Origin: Mustelus asterias
Lineage: Eukaryota
DNA: 64,000 bases
Direction: 5' to 3'
Assembly: GCF_964213995.1 (NCBI RefSeq)
Contig: NC_135817.1
Span: forward strand, 44,330,001 to 44,394,000
Below are positions 27,062 through 44,142 of this stretch, piece after piece. Made by a program: the position numbers and the translations under genes. The notes under the pieces are model-generated. The model ran no database searches and was not told where the DNA came from. It worked only from the letters and a program-made list of their open reading frames with translations. Position 1 is the stretch's first letter. The number at the start of each line of letters is the position of its first letter.

Positions 27062-28110
27062 TCCCACAACACCAGGTTAAAGTCCAACAGGTTTATTTGG
27101 TAGCAAAAGCCACTAGCTTTCGGAGCGCTCCTCCTTCATCAGGTGAGTGGGATTTCAGTTCACAAACAGGGCATAAAAGACACAAATTCAATTTACAAAA
27201 TAATGGTTGGAATGCGAGTCTTTACAGGTAATCAAGTCTTAAAGGTACAGACAATGTGAGTGGAGAGAGGGTTAAGCACAGGTTGAAGAGATGTGTATTG
27301 TCTCCAGGCAGGACAGTTAGTGAGATTTTGCAAGCCCAGGCAAGTTGTGGGGGTTACAGATAGTGTGACATGAACCCAAGATCCCGGTTGAGGCCGTCCT
27401 CATGTGTGCGGAACTTGGCTATCAGTCTCTGCTCAGCGACTCTGCGCTGTCGTGTGCCGTGAAGGCCGCCTTGGATAACGCTTATCCGAAGATCAGAGGC
27501 CGAATGCCCGTGACCGCTGAAGTGTTCCCCAACAGGAAGAGAACACTCTTGCCTGGTGATTGTCGAGCGGTGTTCATTCATCCGTTGTCGTAGCGTCTGC
27601 ATGGTCTCCCCAATGTACCATGCCTCAGGACATCTTTTCCTGCAGCGTATCAGGTAAACAACGTTGGCCAAATTGCAAGTGTATGTACCATGTACCTGGT
27701 GGATGATGTTCTCACGTGAGATGATGGTATCCATGTCGATGATCCGGCACGTCTCGCAGTGTTTGCTGTGGCAGGGTTGTGTGGTATCGTGGTCACTGTT
27801 CTCCTGAAGGCTGGGTAGTTTGCTGCGGACAATGGTCTTTTTGAGGTTGTGTGGTTGTTTGAAGGCAGGAAGTGGAGGTGTGGGGATGGCCTTGGCGAGA
27901 TGTTTATCTTCATCAATGACATGTTGAAGGCTCCGGAGGAGATGTTGTAGCTTCTCTGCTCCGGGGAAGTACTGGACAACGAAGGGTACTCTGTCCGCCG
28001 TGTCCCGTGTTTGTCTTCTGAGGAGGTCGGTGCGATTTTTCGCTGTGGCGCATCAGAACTGTTGATCGATGAGTCAAGTGCCATATGCTGGTCTTATGAG
28101 GGCATCTTAT
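27062..28110 (-). mobile_element. Penelope-like element, 5'-truncated, GIY-YIG endonuclease
   Basis: ORF 27354-27734 NVVYLIRC..WYIGET..LRQRMNEH..; pLTR with hammerhead motif at 27110-27146. Confidence 0.9.
27110..27146 (-). ncRNA. Minimal hammerhead ribozyme motif
   Basis: tcac-CTGATGA-a-ggag gagcg ctcc-GAAA-gc-TA-gtgg; stem I differs from the ccat/atgg variant but still pairs. Confidence 0.7.
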
Positions 28111-28314
28111 ATTGAAACAATATAATTATATTGAAAACAACCCAGGATTATCCTGTAATACAAAGACAACCCTCAGTTTCTTATCTCTATTTTCTTTCAG
28201 CCATCTTCTTAAACCCTTTTCCCCTGTTTCATCTATCTTCATCTTGAAGAACAAGTGTGAAGAGCTCGTAGCCTTTTTTGACACTAAAATTATTTGTTGA
28301 ACTGCCTTTACTAC

Positions 28315-28612
28315 TGATGTGCGATATAACACACGAGAGGCGTGATGTACTCGGGAAATAAAGGCTTTTATTGCCAACAATAACAGAGCTACCATATACA
28401 GTACACGATCCCAGACTAAAGGGTCACCAGGCAGAGCAGTGACCTTTATACCTCTCCCAGGAGGCGGAGCCGACTGGGGTGTACCATAACAACTATATTA
28501 ACAGGTAGAACAGCCCAACCCTAACCCCAACAGTAACATATATACAGACTCATAGTACTGGCCAGACCATGGCTCAGCACTACCTAGTGGGAACCAACAA
28601 TGGTTCACCACA
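28315..28612 (-). repeat. Gypsy 3' LTR (type A, 298 bp)
   Basis: Its 28448-28612 part appears identical to 33065-33229. Confidence 0.95.
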
Positions 28613-28675
28613 TTCACCCCTCCTTTGAAAACAAAGGCCGGCGGGGTACAAAACACAGAATAATTGTTCGTTTGT

Positions 28676-31600
28676 CTATAGGTTCAAGCGGTCTGGGGGA
28701 CCGCACCGTCGTTGTGACCTCCTCAACACCGGCGATGACACCGGTTCAGGCAATCGCGGTGACGTTCTCTCCAAGGCGATGTCCAGCGACTCCTCCAGTG
28801 CCTCACGAGCCGGTAGACCCCGAGTTGGTGACAACCCGCTGAACTCGGGCACGCCTTGAAGTGGCGACCATCTCCTGGACTCAGGCAAGCTGTACACGGG
28901 AGTAAGAGGGTTAAGTGATGGTACCGATACTGCCCGCGCGGTGTCAGGAGGGTAAAAAATGGTTGGGGGGTCCCTAACAGTAGGTGTGGGAGCGACAGGG
29001 GTTTCCAAGTCCCCTGCTGGCGCCAGATCTCGAATCGAGACCGTGTCCTCTCGCCCGTCAGGATATGCCACGTAGGCATACTGAGGGTTGGCGTGGAGGA
29101 GATGGACCTGTTCAACCAGAGGGTCGGACTTGCGGGTCCTAACATGTCGCCGCAGGAGGACAGGTCCTGAATACGTCAACCAAGACGGTAATGAGGTCCC
29201 AGAGGAAGACTTCCTAGGGAATGAAAACATTCTCTCATGAGGAGTAGCGTTGGTTGCCGTACACAGGAGTGAGCGTATGGAGTGGAGCGCATCAGGGAGC
29301 ACCTCTTGCCAATGGGAGACTGGAAGACCTTTAGACTTCAACGCCAGTAAGACAGCCTTCCAGACTGTAGCATTCTCTCGTTCAACCTGTCCGTTACCTC
29401 TTAGGTTGTAGCTCGTGGTTCTACTAGAGGCAATCCCGTATGAGTGCAGGTATTGTCTCAAGTCATCGCTCATGAACGACGAGCCCCTATCGCTGTGGAT
29501 GTAACAGGGGTAACCGAACAGGGTGAAAAGATCACGAAATGCCTTGATAACCGTGGCAGCGGTCATATCAGAACAGGGAATGACAAAAGGGAATCGTGAG
29601 TACTCATCAACCACATTGAGGAAGTACACGTTCCGATCTGTCGAGGGAAGGGGGCCCTTAAAGTCCACACTCAGTCTTTCGAAGGGACGAGTGGCCTTAA
29701 CGAGTTGTGCCCTGTCAGGTCGGTAGAAGTGCAGTTTGCATTCCGCGCGTACCCGGCAGCTTCTGGTTATGGACCTGACATCCTCCACCGAGTAGGGTAG
29801 ATTCCGGGCTTTTATGAAGTGGTAGAGCCGAGTGACCCCCGGATGGCAGAGGTCATTGTGGAGAGCCTGCAATCGATTCTCCTGCATACTAGCGCATGTT
29901 CCACGCGACAGGGCATCCGAGGGCTCGTTGAGCTTCCCTGGACGATACATGAAATCATAATTGTAGGTGGAGAGTTCGATTCTCCACCTCAAGATATTAT
30001 CATTCTTGATCTTACCCCGTAACGTGTTGTTGAACATGAACGCCACGGACCGCTGGTCCGTGAGCAGAGTGAACCGTTTGCCCGCCAAGTAATGGCGACA
30101 ATGCCGAACGGCCTCCACAATGGCCTGGGCCTCCTTTTCCACCGCCGAATGTCGAATTTCAGGGCCTTGGAGGGTGCGAGAGAAAAAGGCGACGGGCCTG
30201 CCCGCCTGGTTAAGTGTGGCGGCCAGGGCAAAATCAGATGCATCACTCTCCACCTGGAAGGGGATGGACTCGTCGATAGCGTGCATCGTGGCTTTCGTGA
30301 TGTCGGCTTTTATTCTTGCAAAGGCTAAGCGAGCCTCTGTTGCTAGGGGAAAAGAGGTAGACTTGATGAGCGGACGGGCTTTGTCCGCGTAATTGGGAAC
30401 CCACTGTGCGTAGTATGAGAAGAAGCCTAAGCATCTTCTCAGTGCTTTGACGCTAGTGGGCAGGGGAAGTTCGAGGAGAGGACGCGTACGGTCTGGATCA
30501 GGGCCAAGGACCCCGTTTTCCACCACGTATCCGAGGATAGCTAGGCGGCGCATGCGAAATACACACTTCTCCCTGTTGTAGGTCAGATTCAGGCGAGATG
30601 CAGTGCGTATAAGAATCTAAAAAGGTTGGCATCGTGGTCCTGCTGGTCATGGCCGCAGATAGTGACGTTATCCAGGTACGGGAAGGTAGCCCGCAGCCCG
30701 CTCTGGTCCACCATTCGGTCCATAGCACGCTGGAAGACCGAGACCCCATTCGTGACACCAAAAGGAACCCTTAAAAAATGGTACAGGCGACCATCCGCCT
30801 CAAAAGCCATGTATTGTCAGTCCTCTGGGCGAATGGGGAGTTGGTGGTAAGCAGATTTTAAGTCAATGGTGGAGAACACCCGGTACTGCGCAATCTGATT
30901 GACCATGTCAGATATGCACGGGAGGGGGTACGCATCCAGCTGCATGTATCTGTTAATGGTCTGACTATAGTCTATGACCATCCGGGGTTTGTTCCCATTC
31001 TTAACCACCACGACTTGCGCTCTCCAGGGACTAGCGCTAGGTTGGATGATCCCTTCCTTGAGGAGCCGCTGAACTTCAGATCGAATGAAGATCCGATCTT
31101 CAGCGCTGTAATGCCTGCTCTTTGTTGCGATGGGCTTGCAGCCTGGCACGAGATTCTGGAATAGGGAGGGTGTGGTAATCCTAAGCGTTGAGAGGCTACA
31201 TGTGGAGCGCGTTGGGCAATTTAGAGGCTGCGGGTCTCCCACTGAAAGCGGAGGGAGTGGCCCACCATACTGCAGGGTTACACTCTTCAAGTGGACCATA
31301 AAATCTAGTCCTAGGAGTATTGGCGCGCAAAGATGCGGTAACAGAAGGAGCTTGAAGTTCTCGTAGACTGTGTCCTGCAACGTCAGATTGACTACGCAAC
31401 TCCCTAGCACGGTGACAGACCGGGACCTTGACGCCATCGAAATTGTCTGCTTGGCAGGCTGGCTCTGGAGGCCACACCGCTTCATGGCGTCTGGGTGAAT
31501 AAAGCTCTCCGTGCTCCCGCTGTCAAACAGACAATAAATCGTGCGTTTGTTTACCTGTATGTCCATCATGGACTTGTCGAGTCTGTGAGGCTTTGCCTGG

Positions 31601-32702
31601 TCCAGGATGATCGACGCCACCGTTGGTTCGTGAGTGCCACTGCAGGCAGCTGAGATGGATGATGGCAACCCCTGCTGGTCATTCGCGGTCGGTGCCGACC
31701 AAAATGGTTGCTCCCATAGGTCGCACATGGGCGATGGCGCCAAAATCAGCGACCCCTGGTGGTCGCGCGTCTCTTGCGACTCCATCGTCTGGAATGGCGA
31801 CGTCCTGGCCTCGCACGTGGAAGAAACCCTTGACGATGCCGACGACGAGGAAACCGGCTTCGGGGAGTCACACGCCGCACTGCTGTGCCTCGATGTAAGT
31901 TTGGATCGACATACCTTCGAATAATGCCCCTTCTTGCCGCAGGCGGAGCACAATACCGCTTTAGCGGGACATCGCTGCCGAGTGTGTTTCACTCCCCCAC
32001 AGAAGTAACACCACGGGCCGCCTGGAGCTGCTGCCGTCGTCAGGCCCGAGGGTGGGAACGCAATCACGCCGCTTTTCGGACCCGCTGGATGAGGTGGGGT
32101 CTGTGACTGCCCCTGCCACGCTGTCTCCACGTGGTCATCGGGATACATCGCCAGGCTTTTGGAGGCCATTTCTAGCGTACCCGCTAGCTCTATAGACTTA
32201 GTGAGATCGAGATTACCTTGCTCCAACAGTCGAAGTCGGATATAAGACAATCCGATTCCCGCCACAAACGCATCTCGAGCGAGGTCGTTCATGTTCTGGT
32301 CTGCCGACACTGTTTTGCAGTTACAGCCCCTGGCTAGCTGTAGGAGCTCGCACGCATACTGTTCCGTCGTTTCGCCGGGCTGCCGTCGTCGAGTGGCTAA
32401 GAGATATTGAGCATGCATCTCGTTGGCGGTTTAATGTAGCGCTTCTTAAGAAGCTCGAGGGCCCCTTTGTAGTCGGTGGCCGCACGGATCGCTAAATTTA
32501 TAGCGTCGCTTACCCTCGCGTGGAGGACCCAGAGTCTGTCGTCATCTGTGGTGACCGCTGCGGAGGCTTCGAGGTAATCCTGAAAACATTTCAACCAGTG
32601 GTCGAAGGTGTTGGAGGCGCCCACCGCACGTGGGTCCAGCGTAAGCCATTCGGGTTTAAGCATTTGCTCCATGCTCTCTGTATCGTTTTCTTTTTTTTTC
32701 AA
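28676..32702 (-). pseudogene. Gypsy gag-pol with ~3 lesions
   Basis: Two zinc knuckles (CYFCGGVKHTRQRC, CSACGKKGHYSKVC), PR LFDSGS, RT IDLKSAYHQ/YLDN, RNase H ESDAS, IN VDFKGP/HSDRGSSF/GQVEREN. Frameshifts near 32420 and 30600; stop at 30817. Confidence 0.95.
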
Positions 32703-32733
32703 CGACGAGAGTTCAATTAGTAGTCAATAAAAT

Positions 32734-33064
32734 TGATGCGCGATATAACTCACGAGGCTAGAGATGCTCGAGGAAATAAAGGCTTTTATTGACTACTACA
32801 ATAGAGCTACCATATATAATACACGATCCCAGACTGAAGGGTCCCAGACAGAGCAGTGACCTTTATACCTCTCCCAGGAGGCAGAGCCCGACTGGGATGT
32901 ACCATAATAACTATATTACAGGTAGAACAGCCCAACCCTAACCCCAACAGTAACATGTAGAACAGCCCAACCCTAACCCCAACAGTAACATATATACAGA
33001 CTCATAGTACTGGCCAGACCCTGGCTCAGTACTACCTGGTGGGAACCAACGATGGTTCACCACA
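32734..33064 (-). repeat. Gypsy 5' LTR (divergent type B, 331 bp)
   Basis: TG...CA; homologous to but clearly different from type A; followed by a 165-bp type-A fragment at 33065-33229. Confidence 0.9.
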
Positions 33065-33735
33065 ATACCTCTCCCAGGAGGCGGAGCCGACTGGGGTGTA
33101 CCATAACAACTATATTAACAGGTAGAACAGCCCAACCCTAACCCCAACAGTAACATATATACAGACTCATAGTACTGGCCAGACCATGGCTCAGCACTAC
33201 CTAGTGGGAACCAACAATGGTTCACCACAACTACTTCCTTGGTTCTCAGGCCAAACTTCCTCTAAGGGTCTCCCTTCCCTTGCCTTGAACTTTTTTCTTT
33301 AGTTTTTCTCTTATCCACCTTATGCCATCTCTGATCTCAACTTGTCCATGAGACCCTATCTTGCTCTCTCAATGCTATTTGAATGAGAATACTGACAACT
33401 CAGCTTCCCTTCTTGGCTCGCACATTAGCTGATATTAATGGTTTTCTTTCCTTAGACTCTCTCTTTAAATCTTCTGTCATAGCCCCTCTTGGTAGTTTCA
33501 AAATTAATAGTATTAGTGTGACTATCATTTTATAGTTTAAAATAATATTATTCAGCATTCTGTGCTAAATTGACAAAAGCGCTTTAAAAAAAACAAAATC
33601 TGCATTATTAGAAAGCAGCTACATTAGATAAATAGACAGCCTTATTTGTGAGACAATTTAAAAAATAAGCAATTCATTCATAGAGATATTAGGAAAGCTT
33701 GTAATGTAATCTGGAACACAACAGTTTATCACTTT

Positions 33736-35727: not shown

Positions 35728-35930
35728 TCCAACATATACAGACATCGTCCGAGGTGGATTGAATAAACGATCGTCTGGGTGTCGGTAACATGAGACGGCC
35801 GGGCCCACGAGGTAAGATTAACCTTGGTCTCTCTCACTGGATTAATACTCAGTCGACCCCTCATCCCCCGAGGCCCTGTATTGACGGAACCCAGAGACGA
35901 CTTACGTCCTTGAACACTGACTAGTCCTAC

Positions 35931-36322
35931 ACCGGGAGGTTCGAGTCCCCCCGTTGTCCTGGTGGTTCGAGTCCCCAGGTTTATTTAGTAAGACACCAGG
36001 CGGTTCGAGTCCCCCGGTTGATCTGGTGGTTCGAGTCCCCAGGTTTATTTAGTAAGACACCAGGCGGTTCGAGTCCCCCGGTTGATCTGGTGGTTCGAGT
36101 CCCCAGGTTTATTTATTAAGACACCGGGCAGTTCGAGTCCCCCGGTTGCTCTGGTGGTTCGAGTTCCCAGGTTTATTTGGTAAGACACCGGGCGTTTCGA
36201 GTCCCCCGGTCTGCCTGGAGGTTCGAGTCCCCAGGTCTATTCGGTAATATAGCGGAGGTTTGAGCCCCCCGTTGACCTTGGGGTTCGAATCCCTAGGTCG
36301 ATAGCAATTGACGTTCGAGTCC
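35931..36322 (+). repeat. 64-bp dimeric tandem array of GGTTCGAGTCC hairpins in the ERV-A leader
   Basis: Period 64 (accagg at 35995 and 36059); 13 B-box/T-loop-like motifs. Confidence 0.9.
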
Positions 36323-36343: not shown

Positions 36344-36651
36344 TGATGCGCGATTAATTCACTCGAGATGCTCGATCGTACTCGGGAAATAAAGGCTTTT
36401 ATTAGCAACAAGAATAGAGCATACTGCTTAACAATACAATCCTAGACTAAAGGGTCACTAGGAAGTGCAGTGACTTTTATACCCCTATAGGAAGGCGGAG
36501 CCAACCGGAGTGTACCACAGAACAATACCAACAGGCAGAACACCCCAACCCTAACCCCAGCAGCAAGCAGAGTAACATATGTACAAGTACCCATAGTGAT
36601 AACCATCTATGGTTCAGTACCCATAGTGGTAACCATCTATGGTTCACCACA
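36344..36651 (-). mobile_element. Gypsy solo LTR (third variant of the 28-33 kb family)
   Basis: tgatgcgcgat...ggttcaccaca; 5-bp TSD attta. Confidence 0.9.
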
Positions 36652-38135: not shown

Positions 38136-41100
38136 CCCGCTCCTGACGTTTTCCTTTTGCTCCACCGTCAACCCAGCTCCCTTTCTGACTGCTCTACCGG
38201 AGGAGCTCCCAGACCCTCTGCATGATTGCCTCCTCAGGAACAATTTTTTGACATCTCCTCGCCCCGACCTGAGTGATGTCCCTTTGTCCTCACCAGACCA
38301 TACCTTTTATGTTGACGAAAGCTCATCTATTTCTTTAGGAGGGAAGCCCCTCTCCGGCTATGCCATGGTGGACGCTACAGAGGTCTTGGAATCGGCATCC
38401 TTTGACCCCCCCAGTCTCCGCCCCGAAAGCAGAACTATTTGCCCTGACTCGGGCCTGCATCTTGGCGGCTGGCTGTTCTGTTAACATCTATACTGATTCT
38501 CGCTATGCCTTTGGCGTTACCCATGATTTTGGTCAGTTATGGGCCCAGCAAGGTTTTCTTACCTCCTCGGGTTCCCCGATCCAAAACTCCTTTTTAATTA
38601 AGAACCTACTACAGGCTATCCTTCTCCCGGCAAAACTGGCTGTTATTAAATGATGTGGAGATGCCGGCGTTGGACTGGGGTGAACACGGTAAGAAGTCTC
38701 ACAACACCAGGTTAAAGTCCAACAGGTTTATTTGGTAGCAAATACCATAAGTTTTCGGAGCACTGCTCCTTCGTCAGATGGAGTGGAAATGTGCTCTCAA
38801 ACAGTGCAAACAGACAAAATCAAGTTGCAGAATACTGATTAGAATGCGAATCCTACAACCAGCCAGGTCTTAAAGATACAGACAATGTGGGTGGAGGGAA
38901 CATTAAACACAGGTTAAAGAAATGTGTATTGTCTCCAGACAGAACAGCTAGTGAGATTCTACAAGCCCAGGAGGCAAGCTGTGGGGGTTACTGATAATGT
39001 GACATAAATCCAACATCCCGGTTTAGGCCGTCCTCATGTGTGCGGAACTTGGCTATTACTTTCTGCTCAGCGACTCTGCGCTGTCGTGTGTCGTGAAGGC
39101 CGCCTTGGAGAACGCTTACCTGAAGATCCAAGGCTGAATGCCCGTGACTGCTGAAGTGCTCCCCCACAAGAAGAGAACAGTCTTGCCTGGTGATTGTCGA
39201 GCGGTGTTCATTCATCCGTTGTCGTAGTGTCTGCATGGTTTCCCCAATGTACCATGCCTCGGGACATCCTTTCCTGCAGCGTATCAGGTAGACAATGTTG
39301 GCCGAGTTGCAAGAGTAGGTACCGTGTACCTGGTAGATGGTGCTCTCACGTGAGATGATGGCATCCGTGTCGATGATCCGGCACGTCTTGCAGAGGTTGC
39401 TGTGGCAGGGTTGTGTGGTGTCGTGGTCACTGTTCTCCTGAAGGCTGGGTAGTTTGCTGCGGACAATGGTCTGTTTGAGGTTGTGTGGGAACACCATCTA
39501 CCAGGTACACGGTACCTACTCTTGCAACTCGGCCAACATTGTCTACCTGATACGCTGCAGGAAAGGATGTCCCGAGGCATGGTACATTGGGGAAACCATG
39601 CAGACACTACGACAACGGATGAATGAACACCGCTCGACAATCACCAGGCAAGACTGTTCTCTTCCTGTGGGGGAGCACTTCAGCAGCCACGGGCATTCAG
39701 CCTTGGATCTTCAGGTAAGCGTTCTCCAAGGCGGCCTTCACGACACACGACAGCACAGAGTCGCTGAGCAGAAATGGCCTAAACCGGGATGTTGGATTTA
39801 TGTCACATTATCTGTAACCCCCACAGCTTGCCCCCTGGGCTTGTAGAATCTCACTAGCTGTTCTGTCTGGAGACAATACACATTTCTTTAACCTGTGTTT
39901 AATGTTCCCTCCACCCACATTGTCTGTACCTTTAAGACCTGGCCGGTTGTAGGATTCGCATTCTAATCAGTATTCTGCAACTTGATTTTGTCTGTTTGCA
40001 CTGTTTGAGAGCACATTTCCACTCCATCTGACAAAGGGGCAGTGCTCCGAAAGCTTATGGTATTTGCTACCAAATAAACCTTTTGGACTTTAACCTGGTG
40101 TTGTGAGACTTCTTACCGTGTTATTAAATGTGCAGCCCACACATCAGACTCGTCATTGGTCACTAAGGGTAATGCCCTGGTTGATCGTGCCGCCAAAGCA
40201 GCTGCCGCCTCTGGCGCTATGGTCGTGCCATCCATGAATAAGCAGGCGATAAACCACTAGCCTCCTTTGACCACGCCAGGCATGCCAGATATAGCCACTG
40301 TTCAGCGCTTACTGGGGGATGCCCCTGCTTCTGAACAAGACATTTGGAAGACGCATGGATGTTCGCATTCTGCGTCAACAGGTCTCTGGGTTACTCCAGC
40401 TGGCCAAGTCTGTGTACCCAATGCATTATTACCGTTATTGCTTGATTGCTTGCACTCGGATATGCACCTCGGCAGGGAGGGAATATGTGGAATATTGCTC
40501 CGCACCTGGTGGCACCCGCGATTAAATGAAGCAGCCCAATCCCGTATTCTGTCATGTTTCATATGTCGACAGAAAAATCCCGCCAAGGTATCAGGAGTCC
40601 ACAAGGTAGCACCCACTTGCTGGGAGGCCCATTTGACTGCGTCCAGTTAGATTTTATAGAATTACCTCGTGTACATTGCTACAAATATTGTCTTGTAATT
40701 GTCAATGTGTTTAGCCGTTGGATCGAGGAGTTCCCCACTACCAATAACAAAGCCTCTACAGTGGTAAAATTATTACTGACAGAAATTATACCCAGATTTG
40801 GCATACCCCAACAGATTAGCTCGGACAATGGTCCCCACTTTGTTGGAAAAATGAATAAGGAAATGTGCGACATATTACACATTCAGCAACAGTTCCATTG
40901 TGCCTATCACCCCCAGGCAGCAGGAATAGTGGAAAGAGCTAATGGGGCCCTTAAAATCAAGCTAGCCAAGTTGACGTCTGAAACCGGTCCAAATTGGCTA
41001 AAGGTCTTACCCTTAGCCCTCTACCACATGAGAATAATACCCCATTCTACCATCGGACTATCGGCTGCTGAAATAGTCTATGGTAGGCCAAGCAGAACAC

Positions 41101-41420
41101 CCTGGGATGCGAATATGAGCCCGCCCACTCAGATAGATTTACACGTTATGAGTGATGAAATGCAGAAGTACTTCCACCAGCTAACATCATCTTTTAAGTT
41201 TCTGCATTCACAGGTACAGTGCGCCTTTGGATCAAACGAGTGGATGGAGCCAGATCCTGACCCACAGACCGACTTCATTGGACCCCAGATAGGAGATCTA
41301 GTACTAATAAGGAAATGGGATTGGCCCAAACTTGGACCGCGGTGGAAAGGACCGTTCCAGGTTCTCCTCCAGACTCCAACTGCATCAAGGTTCAAGGACA
41401 ACCTCGCTGGATACATCTGA
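38136..41420 (+). pseudogene. ERV-A pol remnant: tether, RNase H and integrase (PR and RT deleted)
   Basis: HDCL, PRPDLSDVPL, FYVDESS, AELFALTRA, IYTDSRYAFG, AVIK|CAAH..GNALVDRAAK; IN HxxxH, CxxC, QLDFIEL, SSDNGPHF, GIVERANG, GPFQVLL. Confidence 0.92.
38653..40118. mobile_element. Palindromic Penelope-like insertion in ERV-A RNase H
   Basis: Minus arm GIY-YIG ORF 38988-39497, plus arm from ~39489; 12-bp TSD tgttattaaatg (38641-52, 40119-30); hammerhead motifs at 38745-38781 (-) and 40024-40060 (+, core mutated). Confidence 0.95.
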
Positions 41421-42768: not shown

Positions 42769-44142
42769 TCAGGAGGTCTGACCCTCCGCCTGTACACTTG
42801 CGACCGTCATAATTTGCGCTGTTACTGTTTTGCAACAGGCATTCAATAATTCCATACAAACACAGCAAGTAATTACAATTGCAATTAATACAATCAATCC
42901 ATGCATCAGGTATGCACCCCATGACCCGAACCATTGCCCCAGCCAGCCCAGAGGGTTATAATCGTGATATTGGTTCCCCTCATCCTGTATTGTTTTCGCC
43001 ACGTGTTTAATATGATCTGCCAAGTGAGTTATATTCTCCGAAGCATCGGGAATATACATACAGCATTCGGAGCCAACTATGGCACATGTTCCTCCTTGGG
43101 AGGCTAGCACATAATCGAGTGCTAATCGGTTCTGTAACGCCACAGTCCGAATAGCTATGACCTCTGCTGATATTTCAGAGACGGCCGTGCTCACCTCCTC
43201 GAACCCATTTTTAGTCTCATTTGCAATTTTCTCTAGGGTTGAGGCCATCCGTATAAGTTCCTGTGCCGCCTTTGCCGTCCCCAAAAATGGGTAGGCTATC
43301 ATGAAGAATCGTTCTGTCTCACTAATGGCTCCCTTAGCCCTAAGCAGGTGTATCTCGGGGTGGTCCTGTAAGTCAGTGTAATGGTGAATATAGGGCACCA
43401 CATATGCCAAATAACACGATCCTGTCTAATTCCAGGGAAGCCACGGATAGGCATTGTTTCCACAAACAAAATAGGTACCATTATATGCAGTCACCTCGCT
43501 TATATAAGCAGAGGAGAGGCTAACCGGGACGGTGGCGATGGGGCACTGGATTGTGGCCTGTATCATGGCCTCAGCATCATCAGTGATATCAATCTGCTGT
43601 ATACAGTAGCTACGGCCAACAGGTACGGTTCCATTTCTTGTCAGGCAGTTAGCTCCCCCTTGTTGATTTTTCACAATGAAGTAGGGTGGGGAATCTGATC
43701 TGTCATAGTTGGGTTGGTAATGTTTCTTAAAGGTCAATAAAGTGCACCCTCCGCCCCCTAGCCTTGAAATAACATCACTGTTGCTGATACCCTGCATAGT
43801 GGTACCCGATGGGGTTTTAAATGTCAGTTTCCTTGACCCTTCCTGGGTTCCATTCTGATTTAAAACCCATTCTATTGTTAGAATAGCTGAAAAAGGGATA
43901 GAGAATAAAGGAATTCCTCCCTTTCCTCCGTGCATGGGAATGTGTGAACAGACCCAGCACTTGCTCAGATTCGATTGTGATGCATACAGATAAGACATAT
44001 ACACAAAGGTGTTCATACAATAGACAGAGTCATTGTTACAGAGATGATCACTGTGCTTCATCCCTAACTTCTCATAATTCAATTTATACTTTCCCGCTAT
44101 GGCTAACAGGGCCAGGGTCGTGAGTATCAGCATGAGAAGCAT
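42769..44142 (-). pseudogene. ERV-B gamma-type env, one frame with a single premature stop
   Basis: 458 codons; TAG at 43426-28 where ERV-A has Trp. Signal peptide, CWVC, RAKG (degenerate furin site), LQNRLALDYVLASQGGTC, CAIVGSECC (CX6CC), TM helix. Confidence 0.92.

What the first reader, a model, noticed from the sequence alone, without database searches (positions are those of the whole stretch)
32718..32798. Gypsy element has no tRNA PBS; the site is a perfect 15-nt complement of its own LTR
Seen: on the element strand the 5' LTR is followed by a-ttttattgactacta (32732-32718), with no TGG. This pairs exactly with tagtagtcaataaaa inside the same LTR (32798-32784), which contains the AATAAA. 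The 3' end of that segment points into U5, the geometry required to prime minus-strand DNA. The match is to type B; type A reads ttttattgccaacaa and the solo LTR ttttattagcaacaa. Known: Tf1/sushi chromoviruses self-prime with the extreme 5' end of their RNA. Inference: a self-priming variant using an internal R segment (~40 nt after the predicted start) in an element with no visible chromodomain, and/or a hairpin that masks the 5' poly(A) signal.
Basis: partly seen in the sequence, partly recalled or inferred. Interest (0 to 1): 0.7.

Follow-up and report, generated by a model that had tools for sequence, protein, structure and literature searches.

The report
Self-priming Gypsy elements with fossil intermediates
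This jumping gene and its relatives lack the usual tRNA landing site and carry instead about 15 letters that pair with, and change in step with, a stretch of their own end repeat; mis-copied fossil insertions in the genome suggest that they likely start copying themselves from an internal piece of their own RNA, not from its very first letters as in the known yeast case.

Summary
Confirmed and extended. The 15 nt at the primer site (32732-32718) exactly complement 32798-32784 of the same LTR (best of 5000 shuffles: 11). Each related subfamily in this genome matches its own LTR: 76 of 90 copies of four subfamilies are perfect, and 8 of 15 pairs change on both sides across 11 variants. Distant relatives keep the pairing (23 of 31 loci). 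In 7 of 13 such families the paired segment has no canonical poly(A) signal, so poly(A) masking is not the shared role; its 3' end is nearly always followed by RCC. New here: 86 copies whose primer site runs on as complement of the LTR. Forty are palindromic mini-insertions with 5-bp target duplications, and four of eight independent copies that jump into the internal region do so at the predicted transcription start. This places the primer segment at about +38 to +52, inside the RNA. Best reading: RNA self-priming by an internal cut, a variant of the Tf1 mechanism in a chromodomain-less animal Gypsy group. The cut itself is untested.

The parts
33230..33234 (-). 5-bp target-site duplication GTAGT, 5' side
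33065..33229 (-). first 165 nt (U3) of an A-type LTR, identical to the start of the 3' LTR; broken at its TATA box by the B-type LTR
   Evidence: (family D3, 100%)
32734..33064 (-). complete B-type 5' LTR, 331 bp, TG...CA
32862..32867 (-). TATA box (TATAAA)
   Evidence: sequence; spacing to the initiator kept across families
32831..32838 (-). initiator-like TCAGTCT; predicted +1 is the A at 32835
   Evidence: read-through junctions in related copies end here
32799..32835 (-). predicted 37-nt RNA leader before the primer segment
   Evidence: length 37-40 nt in all families; folds no better than shuffles
32784..32798 (-). 15-nt candidate self-primer segment TAGTAGTCAATAAAA (+38 to +52), holding the poly(A) hexamer
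32781..32786 (-). conserved AAA|GCC motif; inferred cut site between 32784 and 32783
   Evidence: invariant in 11 variants; RCC follows the paired segment in 12 of 13 distant families
32733..32783 (-). 51-nt loop (rest of R, U5, one spacer A): the predicted template of minus-strand strong-stop DNA
   Evidence: role inferred
32718..32732 (-). primer-binding site TTTTATTGACTACTA, exact complement of 32798-32784, no TGG
28676..32672 (-). gag-protease-RT-RNase H-integrase region, broken by frameshifts and a stop in this copy; B-type down to about 31400, A-type after; no chromodomain
28613..28626 (-). polypurine tract
28315..28612 (-). A-type 3' LTR, 298 bp; its segment TTGTTGGCAATAAAA lies at 28380-28366
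28310..28314 (-). 5-bp target-site duplication GTAGT, 3' side
36344..36651 (-). solo LTR of subfamily C1 with target duplication TAAAT; segment TTGTTGCTAATAAAA at 36411-36397

Best explanation
This site is the primer-binding site of a Ty3/Gypsy retrotransposon group; it pairs with an internal 15-nt segment of the element's own LTR, and the element likely primes reverse transcription with that segment instead of a tRNA. Inferred steps: the RNA starts at the initiator (+1). The segment at +38 to +52 folds onto the site just after the LTR. A cut at its 3' end (AAA|RCC), probably by the element's RNase H as in Tf1, frees a 3' OH. RT copies the 51-nt loop and jumps to the 3' R. Plus-strand synthesis then normally copies only the paired 15 nt of the primer, which re-creates the site from the LTR in each round and explains the lock-step change. 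When it over-runs, or when the new 3' end folds back on its own LTR, integrase inserts the aberrant products seen in the genome. Shown: the pairing, the covariation, the conserved 3' motif, the aberrant insertions and their junctions. Inferred: the RNA start, the cut, the enzyme, and whether priming is in cis.
For: (1) Exact 15-nt complement to the copy's own LTR in 76 of 90 copies of subfamilies A, B, C1, C2, and at least 13 nt in 22 of 30 copies of four further families picked by gag only. (2) 8 of 15 pairs change on both sides; 96.4% of cells pair against 80.8% in shuffles and 41-50% when slid. In family D the hexamer itself changes to ATTAAA and the site follows. (3) At least 11 nt in 23 of 31 metagenome loci, about 13 families (match identities 39-60%). 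RCC follows the segment in 12 of 13 families, and 7 of 13 lack a canonical hexamer in it. (4) 86 places where the site runs on as LTR complement. Forty are TG...CA palindromes whose arms stop at the LTR start, with a perfect 5-bp target duplication (33, 7; one pair is a duplicated locus). (5) Of 8 independent junctions from the extended site into internal sequence, 4 lie at 52, 53, 54 and 55 nt, where the predicted +1 is at 52, 52, 53 and 53. The other 4 lie at 21-28 nt, and none lies in U3; P about 4e-5 to 8e-6 under a uniform model. Three of the four +1 copies have target duplications. (6) Precedent: Tf1 self-priming by RNase H cleavage (PMC7175516, passage).
Against: No RNA data: no raw reads were listed, so neither the start nor the cut was seen. 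The +1 junctions show that an RNA ending at +1 was copied, but it could be the 5' end of a second RNA, not the primer itself. The 5-nt window of the test was set after seeing the junctions, landing sites depend on microhomology, and n is 8. Three extended loci (L280, L283, L359/L360) run on through U3 into the 3' internal region; this needs the 3' end of an element as template and does not fit simple fold-back. No structure was found that would stop plus-strand copying at 15 nt: leader and loop fold no better than shuffles (z -0.9 to +1.2; -0.1 to -1.8). A cut at +52 leaves only a short R overlap for the first jump (inferred). 8 of 31 metagenome loci show under 11 nt.
Confidence: 0.75

Rival explanations
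1. Self-priming, but the primer comes in trans or from the 3' repeat: a separate short LTR transcript (+1 to +52), the second packaged RNA, or the same segment in the 3' R supplies the 3' OH.
For: It gives the same covariation. Three extended loci run on through U3 into the polypurine tract and 3' internal region (L280, L283, L359/L360).
Against: Four junctions stop at +1 and 40 palindromes stop at the LTR start; priming from the 3' R would not favour either end. The cis hairpin is the minimum-energy fold of the 120-nt leader (-28.1 kcal/mol, z -2.1).
Confidence: 0.13
2. Tf1-type geometry: transcription starts at the first base of the paired segment, so the primer is the extreme 5' end of the RNA and the element only adds a new clade to the known mechanism.
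For: It would explain the nearly fixed 14-16 nt length with no extra stop signal, and it is the described geometry (10.1101/2022.12.06.519325, passages). The RNA start was not examined in the distant relatives, where it may hold.
Against: TATA and initiator sit a conserved 37-40 nt upstream of the segment in all eight families here. Read-through junctions end at that initiator in four copies from three family groups. The segment begins with T or C.
Confidence: 0.07
3. The hairpin exists to hide the 5' poly(A) signal (or for packaging), and priming uses a host RNA or protein not yet identified.
For: In all eight families of this genome the paired segment holds AATAAA or ATTAAA, and the 5' LTR alone has the partner strand.
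Against: 7 of 13 distant families pair a segment without a canonical hexamer; in L142 and L184 AATAAA lies free in the loop. The partner sits exactly where a primer must bind, 0-1 nt from the LTR end, and no other primer site is visible. Fold-back insertions show that DNA 3' ends arise at this site.
Confidence: 0.04
4. The site binds a tRNA fragment, and the match to the LTR is incidental.
For: Half-tRNA primers exist in copia elements (PMC6317226, passage). My tRNA set was incomplete.
Against: More than 20 different site sequences each follow their own LTR. The longest stretch shared with 54 distinct tRNA calls was 7 nt. Rfam gave no tRNA match over the region at E up to 10.
Confidence: 0.01

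Closest known systems
Tf1/Tf2 (Schizosaccharomyces pombe), Tj1, Tosmo and the Tf1/sushi chromovirus group
   Same: Ty3/Gypsy order of domains; no tRNA site; the site just after the 5' LTR is complementary to the element's own R region (PMC4600332, PMC7175516, 10.1101/2022.12.06.519325; passages read).
   Different: There the primer is the extreme 5' end of the RNA (first 11 bases in Tf1), it needs a three-duplex 'pretzel', and the integrase has a chromodomain. Here the segment is internal (+38 to +52), about 15 nt, usually ends on the poly(A) hexamer at AAA|RCC, has no chromodomain, and flanking stems are not supported above chance.
Plant Tcn1 chromoviruses and TAR (Houba, Osr-1) copia elements
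   Same: Self-priming predicted from sequence in large sets (83% and 89% of elements; PMC6317226, passages and supplementary table).
   Different: Other lineages and hosts. The passages I saw give no position for the primer and no integrated fold-back or read-through products.
Mag-lineage and related chromodomain-less animal Gypsy clades (A/B/C clades, Cigr-1, MolGy)
   Same: Compact single-ORF elements in marine animals; protein relatives here are named from rays, catsharks, cnidarians, a mussel, a crinoid, an argonaut, a rotifer and Trichinella. Two zinc knuckles in Gag recall the Mag lineage; that label is from memory.
   Different: No tree with named reference elements could be built, so the clade is unassigned. 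The two clade surveys I searched (PMC6238403, PMC8556966) have no occurrence of 'PBS' in their main text.
HIV-1-type poly(A) hairpin that hides the 5' poly(A) signal (recalled, not read)
   Same: AAUAAA sits in a stem near the 5' end of the RNA.
   Different: Here the partner strand is the primer-binding site outside the LTR, and many relatives keep the stem without the hexamer.

Membership tests
Ty3/Gypsy LTR retrotransposon | gag, protease, RT, RNase H, integrase in that order between LTRs | tested here: met
   Pfam on window frames and on long natural frames of two other copies; best solved relative is Ty3
Ty3/Gypsy LTR retrotransposon | TG...CA LTRs, polypurine tract, 4-6 bp target duplication | tested here: met
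tRNA-primed LTR elements | site begins TGG and complements a tRNA 3' end | tested here: not met
   no TGG after the LTR in any copy with an LTR-site junction; at most 7 nt shared with 54 tRNA calls, a partial set
Tf1/sushi self-priming chromoviruses | site complementary to the element's own LTR transcript | tested here: met
Tf1/sushi self-priming chromoviruses | primer is the extreme 5' end of the RNA | tested here: not met
   segment lies 37-40 nt after the predicted start; four read-through junctions end at that start; indirect, no RNA data
Tf1/sushi self-priming chromoviruses | chromodomain at the integrase C-terminus | tested here: not met
   no Chromo hit at E up to 1 in 7 proteins
Tf1/sushi self-priming chromoviruses | three-duplex pretzel structure around the primer duplex | tested here: inconclusive
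   single-sequence folds show inner stems, but none beats shuffles and the alignment fold predicts none in the loop
Tf1/sushi self-priming chromoviruses | RNase H-dependent cleavage that frees the primer | not testable with these tools
   needs biochemistry; only the conserved AA|RCC end is seen
Tf1/sushi self-priming chromoviruses | RT-integrase phylogeny inside the chromovirus branch | not tested
   no named reference sequences were available from the tools
Mag lineage of Gypsy | RT/RNase H phylogeny with Mag, SURL, CFG1, Gulliver, Hydra2-1 | not tested
   no reference sequences; resemblance rests on two Gag knuckles and host range, label recalled

The most novel reading that the evidence does not exclude
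A widespread chromodomain-less animal Gypsy group evolved self-priming separately from Tf1/sushi. It cuts its own RNA internally at AA|RCC, so the primer is the whole capped 5' leader of about 52 nt, of which only the last 15 pair. In these shark-like families one hairpin hides the 5' poly(A) signal and makes the primer. The price is a steady output, a few percent of copies, of integrated palindromic fold-back mini-elements, a class of insertion that records reverse-transcription intermediates in the genome.
Probability: 0.55. Interest if true: 0.82.

Novelty: new variant of a known kind. Interest (0 to 1): 0.72.

Why it matters
In the papers I could search, self-priming among Gypsy elements is tied to the Tf1/sushi chromoviruses and to the extreme 5' end of the RNA. 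An internal primer in a different, widespread animal group would mean that tRNA-free priming arose more than once and can work by another geometry. Such elements would escape control by host tRNA fragments (inference) and be missed by annotation tools that need a tRNA site. The fossil fold-back and read-through insertions give a way to map the RNA start and cDNA ends from genome sequence alone. They also name the exact nucleotide to test, so the mechanism can be checked with a 120-nt RNA and one enzyme domain.

Tried and rejected
Chimeric LTRs crossing just after the hexamer, which would show where strong-stop DNA ends: none in either direction. Crossings at the other positions were not counted, so this is uninformative. 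A stable hairpin in the 37-nt leader as the stop signal for plus-strand copying: rejected, z -0.9 to +1.2 in 8 leaders, although the alignment fold predicts 8 weak pairs there. A structured inner loop: z -0.1 to -1.8, not supported. RNA evidence: no RNA holder listed; contigs laid cannot show starts or ends. First tRNA comparison discarded, because ARAGORN with long introns called palindromic elements as tRNAs; redone. tRNA coverage stayed at 15 anticodon labels. In one search the initiator pattern picked a site 5 nt too early in 15 copies of families F and G; the TCAGT site gives 31 and 38 nt (alignment). Arm-to-arm distance as proof that each palindrome came from one molecule: weak (own arm as close as or closer than any other in 22 of 32; mean 0.017 against 0.026). 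Two primary Tf1 papers were not held; the Tf1 mechanism is cited from secondary passages. Repbase and subscription papers (such as Butler 2001 on vertebrate sushi elements) could not be searched; supplements of the bioRxiv paper were not seen.

Full report
Observation. On the minus strand a Gypsy element spans 33229-28315 between GTAGT target duplications. Its 5' LTR ends in CA at 32734. One A follows, then TTTTATTGACTACTA (32732-32718), the exact complement of 32798-32784 in that LTR. The best match in 5000 dinucleotide shuffles of the LTR was 11 nt. Pfam finds protease, RT, RNase H and integrase, and no chromodomain in 7 proteins at E up to 1. This copy is a chimera: diagnostic sites are B-type down to about 31400 and A-type after it, apart from 3 scattered B calls. 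The 5' end is 165 nt of an A LTR broken at its TATA box by a whole B LTR. A nested insertion followed by recombination is the simplest reading (inference). It explains why the site matches only the 5' LTR.

Covariation in this genome. I collected 30 B copies by internal sequence, and 30 A and 30 C copies by patterns that fixed the LTR end and only the first three letters of the site. 76 of 90 have a perfect 15-nt complement to their own LTR: B 26, A 27, C1 13, C2 10. The other 14 are point mutants, copies whose LTR segment is lost, one solo LTR and one C2/C1 mix. A search with a ray gag fragment brought 30 copies of four more families; 22 have at least 13 perfect pairs. In family D the hexamer is ATTAAA and the site reads TTTTAAT. 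Across 11 variants, 8 of 15 pairs change on both sides, and 96.4% of cells pair against 80.8% in shuffles and 41-50% when slid; these variants are related, so this is not a probability. A TATA box and a TCAGT-type initiator lie at fixed spacing, 37-40 nt upstream of the segment, in all families.

Distant relatives. Protein relatives are named from rays, catsharks, cnidarians, a mussel, a crinoid, an argonaut, a rotifer and Trichinella. Of 80 metagenome loci, 31 reached the gag start and were scanned; 23 show a perfect complement of 11-19 nt next to the LTR end, in about 13 families, and 8 show less. In 12 of the 13 families the paired segment is followed by ACC or GCC (one read by eye), as in all eight families here. 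In 7 of 13 it holds no AATAAA or ATTAAA, and in L142 and L184 AATAAA lies free in the loop. The constant features are therefore the position of the site and the 3' end of its partner, not the poly(A) signal.

Fossil products. If the site is re-made by copying a primer that has more RNA on its 5' side, some copies should show the site running on as complement of the LTR. Four pattern searches found 86 distinct places (34, 17, 19 and 16 new ones), and all were fetched. Forty are palindromic mini-insertions: a whole LTR, one A, the site, then the inverted R and U3 back to the LTR start, with a perfect 5-bp target duplication (33 of 70, 398-718 bp; 7 of 16). One pair shares flanks, so 39 sites. 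Swapping flanks between loci gave 4 duplications in 1056 pairs. They occur in A, B, C, D, E and F types. Against 305, 414 and 62 ordinary junctions (different patterns, so rough), the 34 exact A-C matches are about 4%. Precise U3 ends with target duplications point to integrase acting on cDNA that folded back in the register of this pairing (inference). A genomic fold-back would not be expected to stop at the LTR start.

Mapping the RNA start. In 11 copies the extended site jumps into internal sequence. Four share one 24-nt junction at the gag start and are counted once, which leaves 8: 21, 24, 28, 28, 52, 53, 54 and 55 nt. The initiator A, predicted before these searches (note), lies at 52, 52, 53 and 53 nt in the last four. 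The 0-2 nt overshoot falls in microhomology with the landing site. None jumps from U3. Under a uniform model P is 4e-5 to 8e-6, with the window chosen afterwards. Three of the four have target duplications (L261, L277; L370). A DNA template has no end at +1, but an RNA does. So the RNA likely starts at the initiator and the paired segment is internal. Whether the RNA copied was the primer itself or the 5' end of a second RNA cannot be told. The remaining 35 loci are truncated or more complex. At least three carry the inverted LTR at one end of a deleted element with a target duplication. Three run through U3 into the 3' internal region (L280, L283, L359/L360), which needs the 3' end of an element as template and keeps a trans or 3'-R route open.

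What failed. No chimeric LTRs crossing after the hexamer. Leader and loop fold no better than shuffles, so I cannot say what stops copying at 15 nt. No RNA holder was listed. The tRNA check covered 54 distinct calls with 15 anticodon labels and gave at most 7 nt; Rfam gave no tRNA hit over the region.

Mechanism. Most likely the transcript folds so that +38 to +52 pairs with the site, a cut at AAA|RCC frees a 3' OH, RT copies about 51 nt and jumps to the 3' R, and plus-strand synthesis re-creates the site from the primer (0.75). The cut and the enzyme are inferred from Tf1. Rivals: primer in trans or from the 3' R (0.13), Tf1 geometry (0.07), poly(A) masking with an unknown primer (0.04), tRNA fragment (0.01).

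Known cases. Ten full-text searches (terms around self-priming, PBS, Mag, Cigr-1, shark, snap-back) showed self-priming for Tf1/sushi, Tcn1 and TAR copia elements. In the listings and the passages read I saw none for a chromodomain-less animal Gypsy group, an internal primer, or integrated fold-back products; two broad searches listed only 25 of 292 and 20 of 61 hits. I read passages only of PMC6317226 (plus one supplementary table), PMC3601003, PMC4600332, PMC7175516, PMC8220671, PMC6934838, PMC6238403, PMC8556966, PMC5006619, PMC5341516 and 10.1101/2022.12.06.519325. The last states that the Tf1-type self-primers sit at the RNA 5' end and that those elements carry a chromodomain. Repbase and subscription papers were out of reach, so an earlier remark there is possible. 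The element works like Tf1 but fails two defining tests of that group, and its clade is unassigned. Earlier notes of this scan report the same pairing in other genomes; look-ups for the palindromic products found no note on them.

Verdict. A real, functional-looking feature and a new variant of a known mechanism, with unusual genomic evidence for its intermediates. Interest 0.72.

Noticed in passing
window 33229-32734 and about 31400: The element is a B/A chimera: a B LTR sits in the TATA box of an A LTR, and the internal region switches once from B to A.
   Followed up: yes
G000 C1:157161353 and 157165764; C5:139426294, 139430707, 139435120; C7:30224514 and 30228887: LTR-primer-site junctions repeat every 4.37-4.41 kb, which suggests tandem elements sharing LTRs.
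   Followed up: no
L244, L356, L365, L369: Four C1-type copies share a 24-nt primer site fused to the gag start by microhomology; possibly a sub-lineage that spread with a longer duplex.
   Followed up: partly
L230, L250, L253, L256, L259, L264, L267, L370: These copies begin with an inverted U5 joined to part of U5, so they start at a U5 end; perhaps opened DNA hairpins.
   Followed up: no
L277, L287, L369: Small two-LTR derivatives with only about 135-370 bp of internal sequence (TRIM-like), made by a jump from the extended primer site or just after it.
   Followed up: partly
window 40530-41420 (+) and 42769-43425 (-): Retroviral-type integrase (rve, MLVIN_C) and envelope (TLV_coat) fragments on opposite strands; broken endogenous retrovirus pieces.
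   Followed up: no
window 27354-28052 and 38683-40122: A GIY-YIG frame, and a related 1.4-kb inverted repeat with 98% complementary arms, probably Penelope-like.
   Followed up: no
window 32790-32775: AATAAA-AGCC-TTTATT is a small local inverted repeat in subfamilies A-C that could compete with the long pairing, also in the 3' LTR; families D-G lack it.
   Followed up: no
L145:6094-6456: A different element with a TGG-type primer site lies just upstream of a self-complementary one; a tRNA-primed neighbour for contrast.
   Followed up: no
window 35922-36241: Tandem array with a 64-nt period next to the solo LTR.
   Followed up: no
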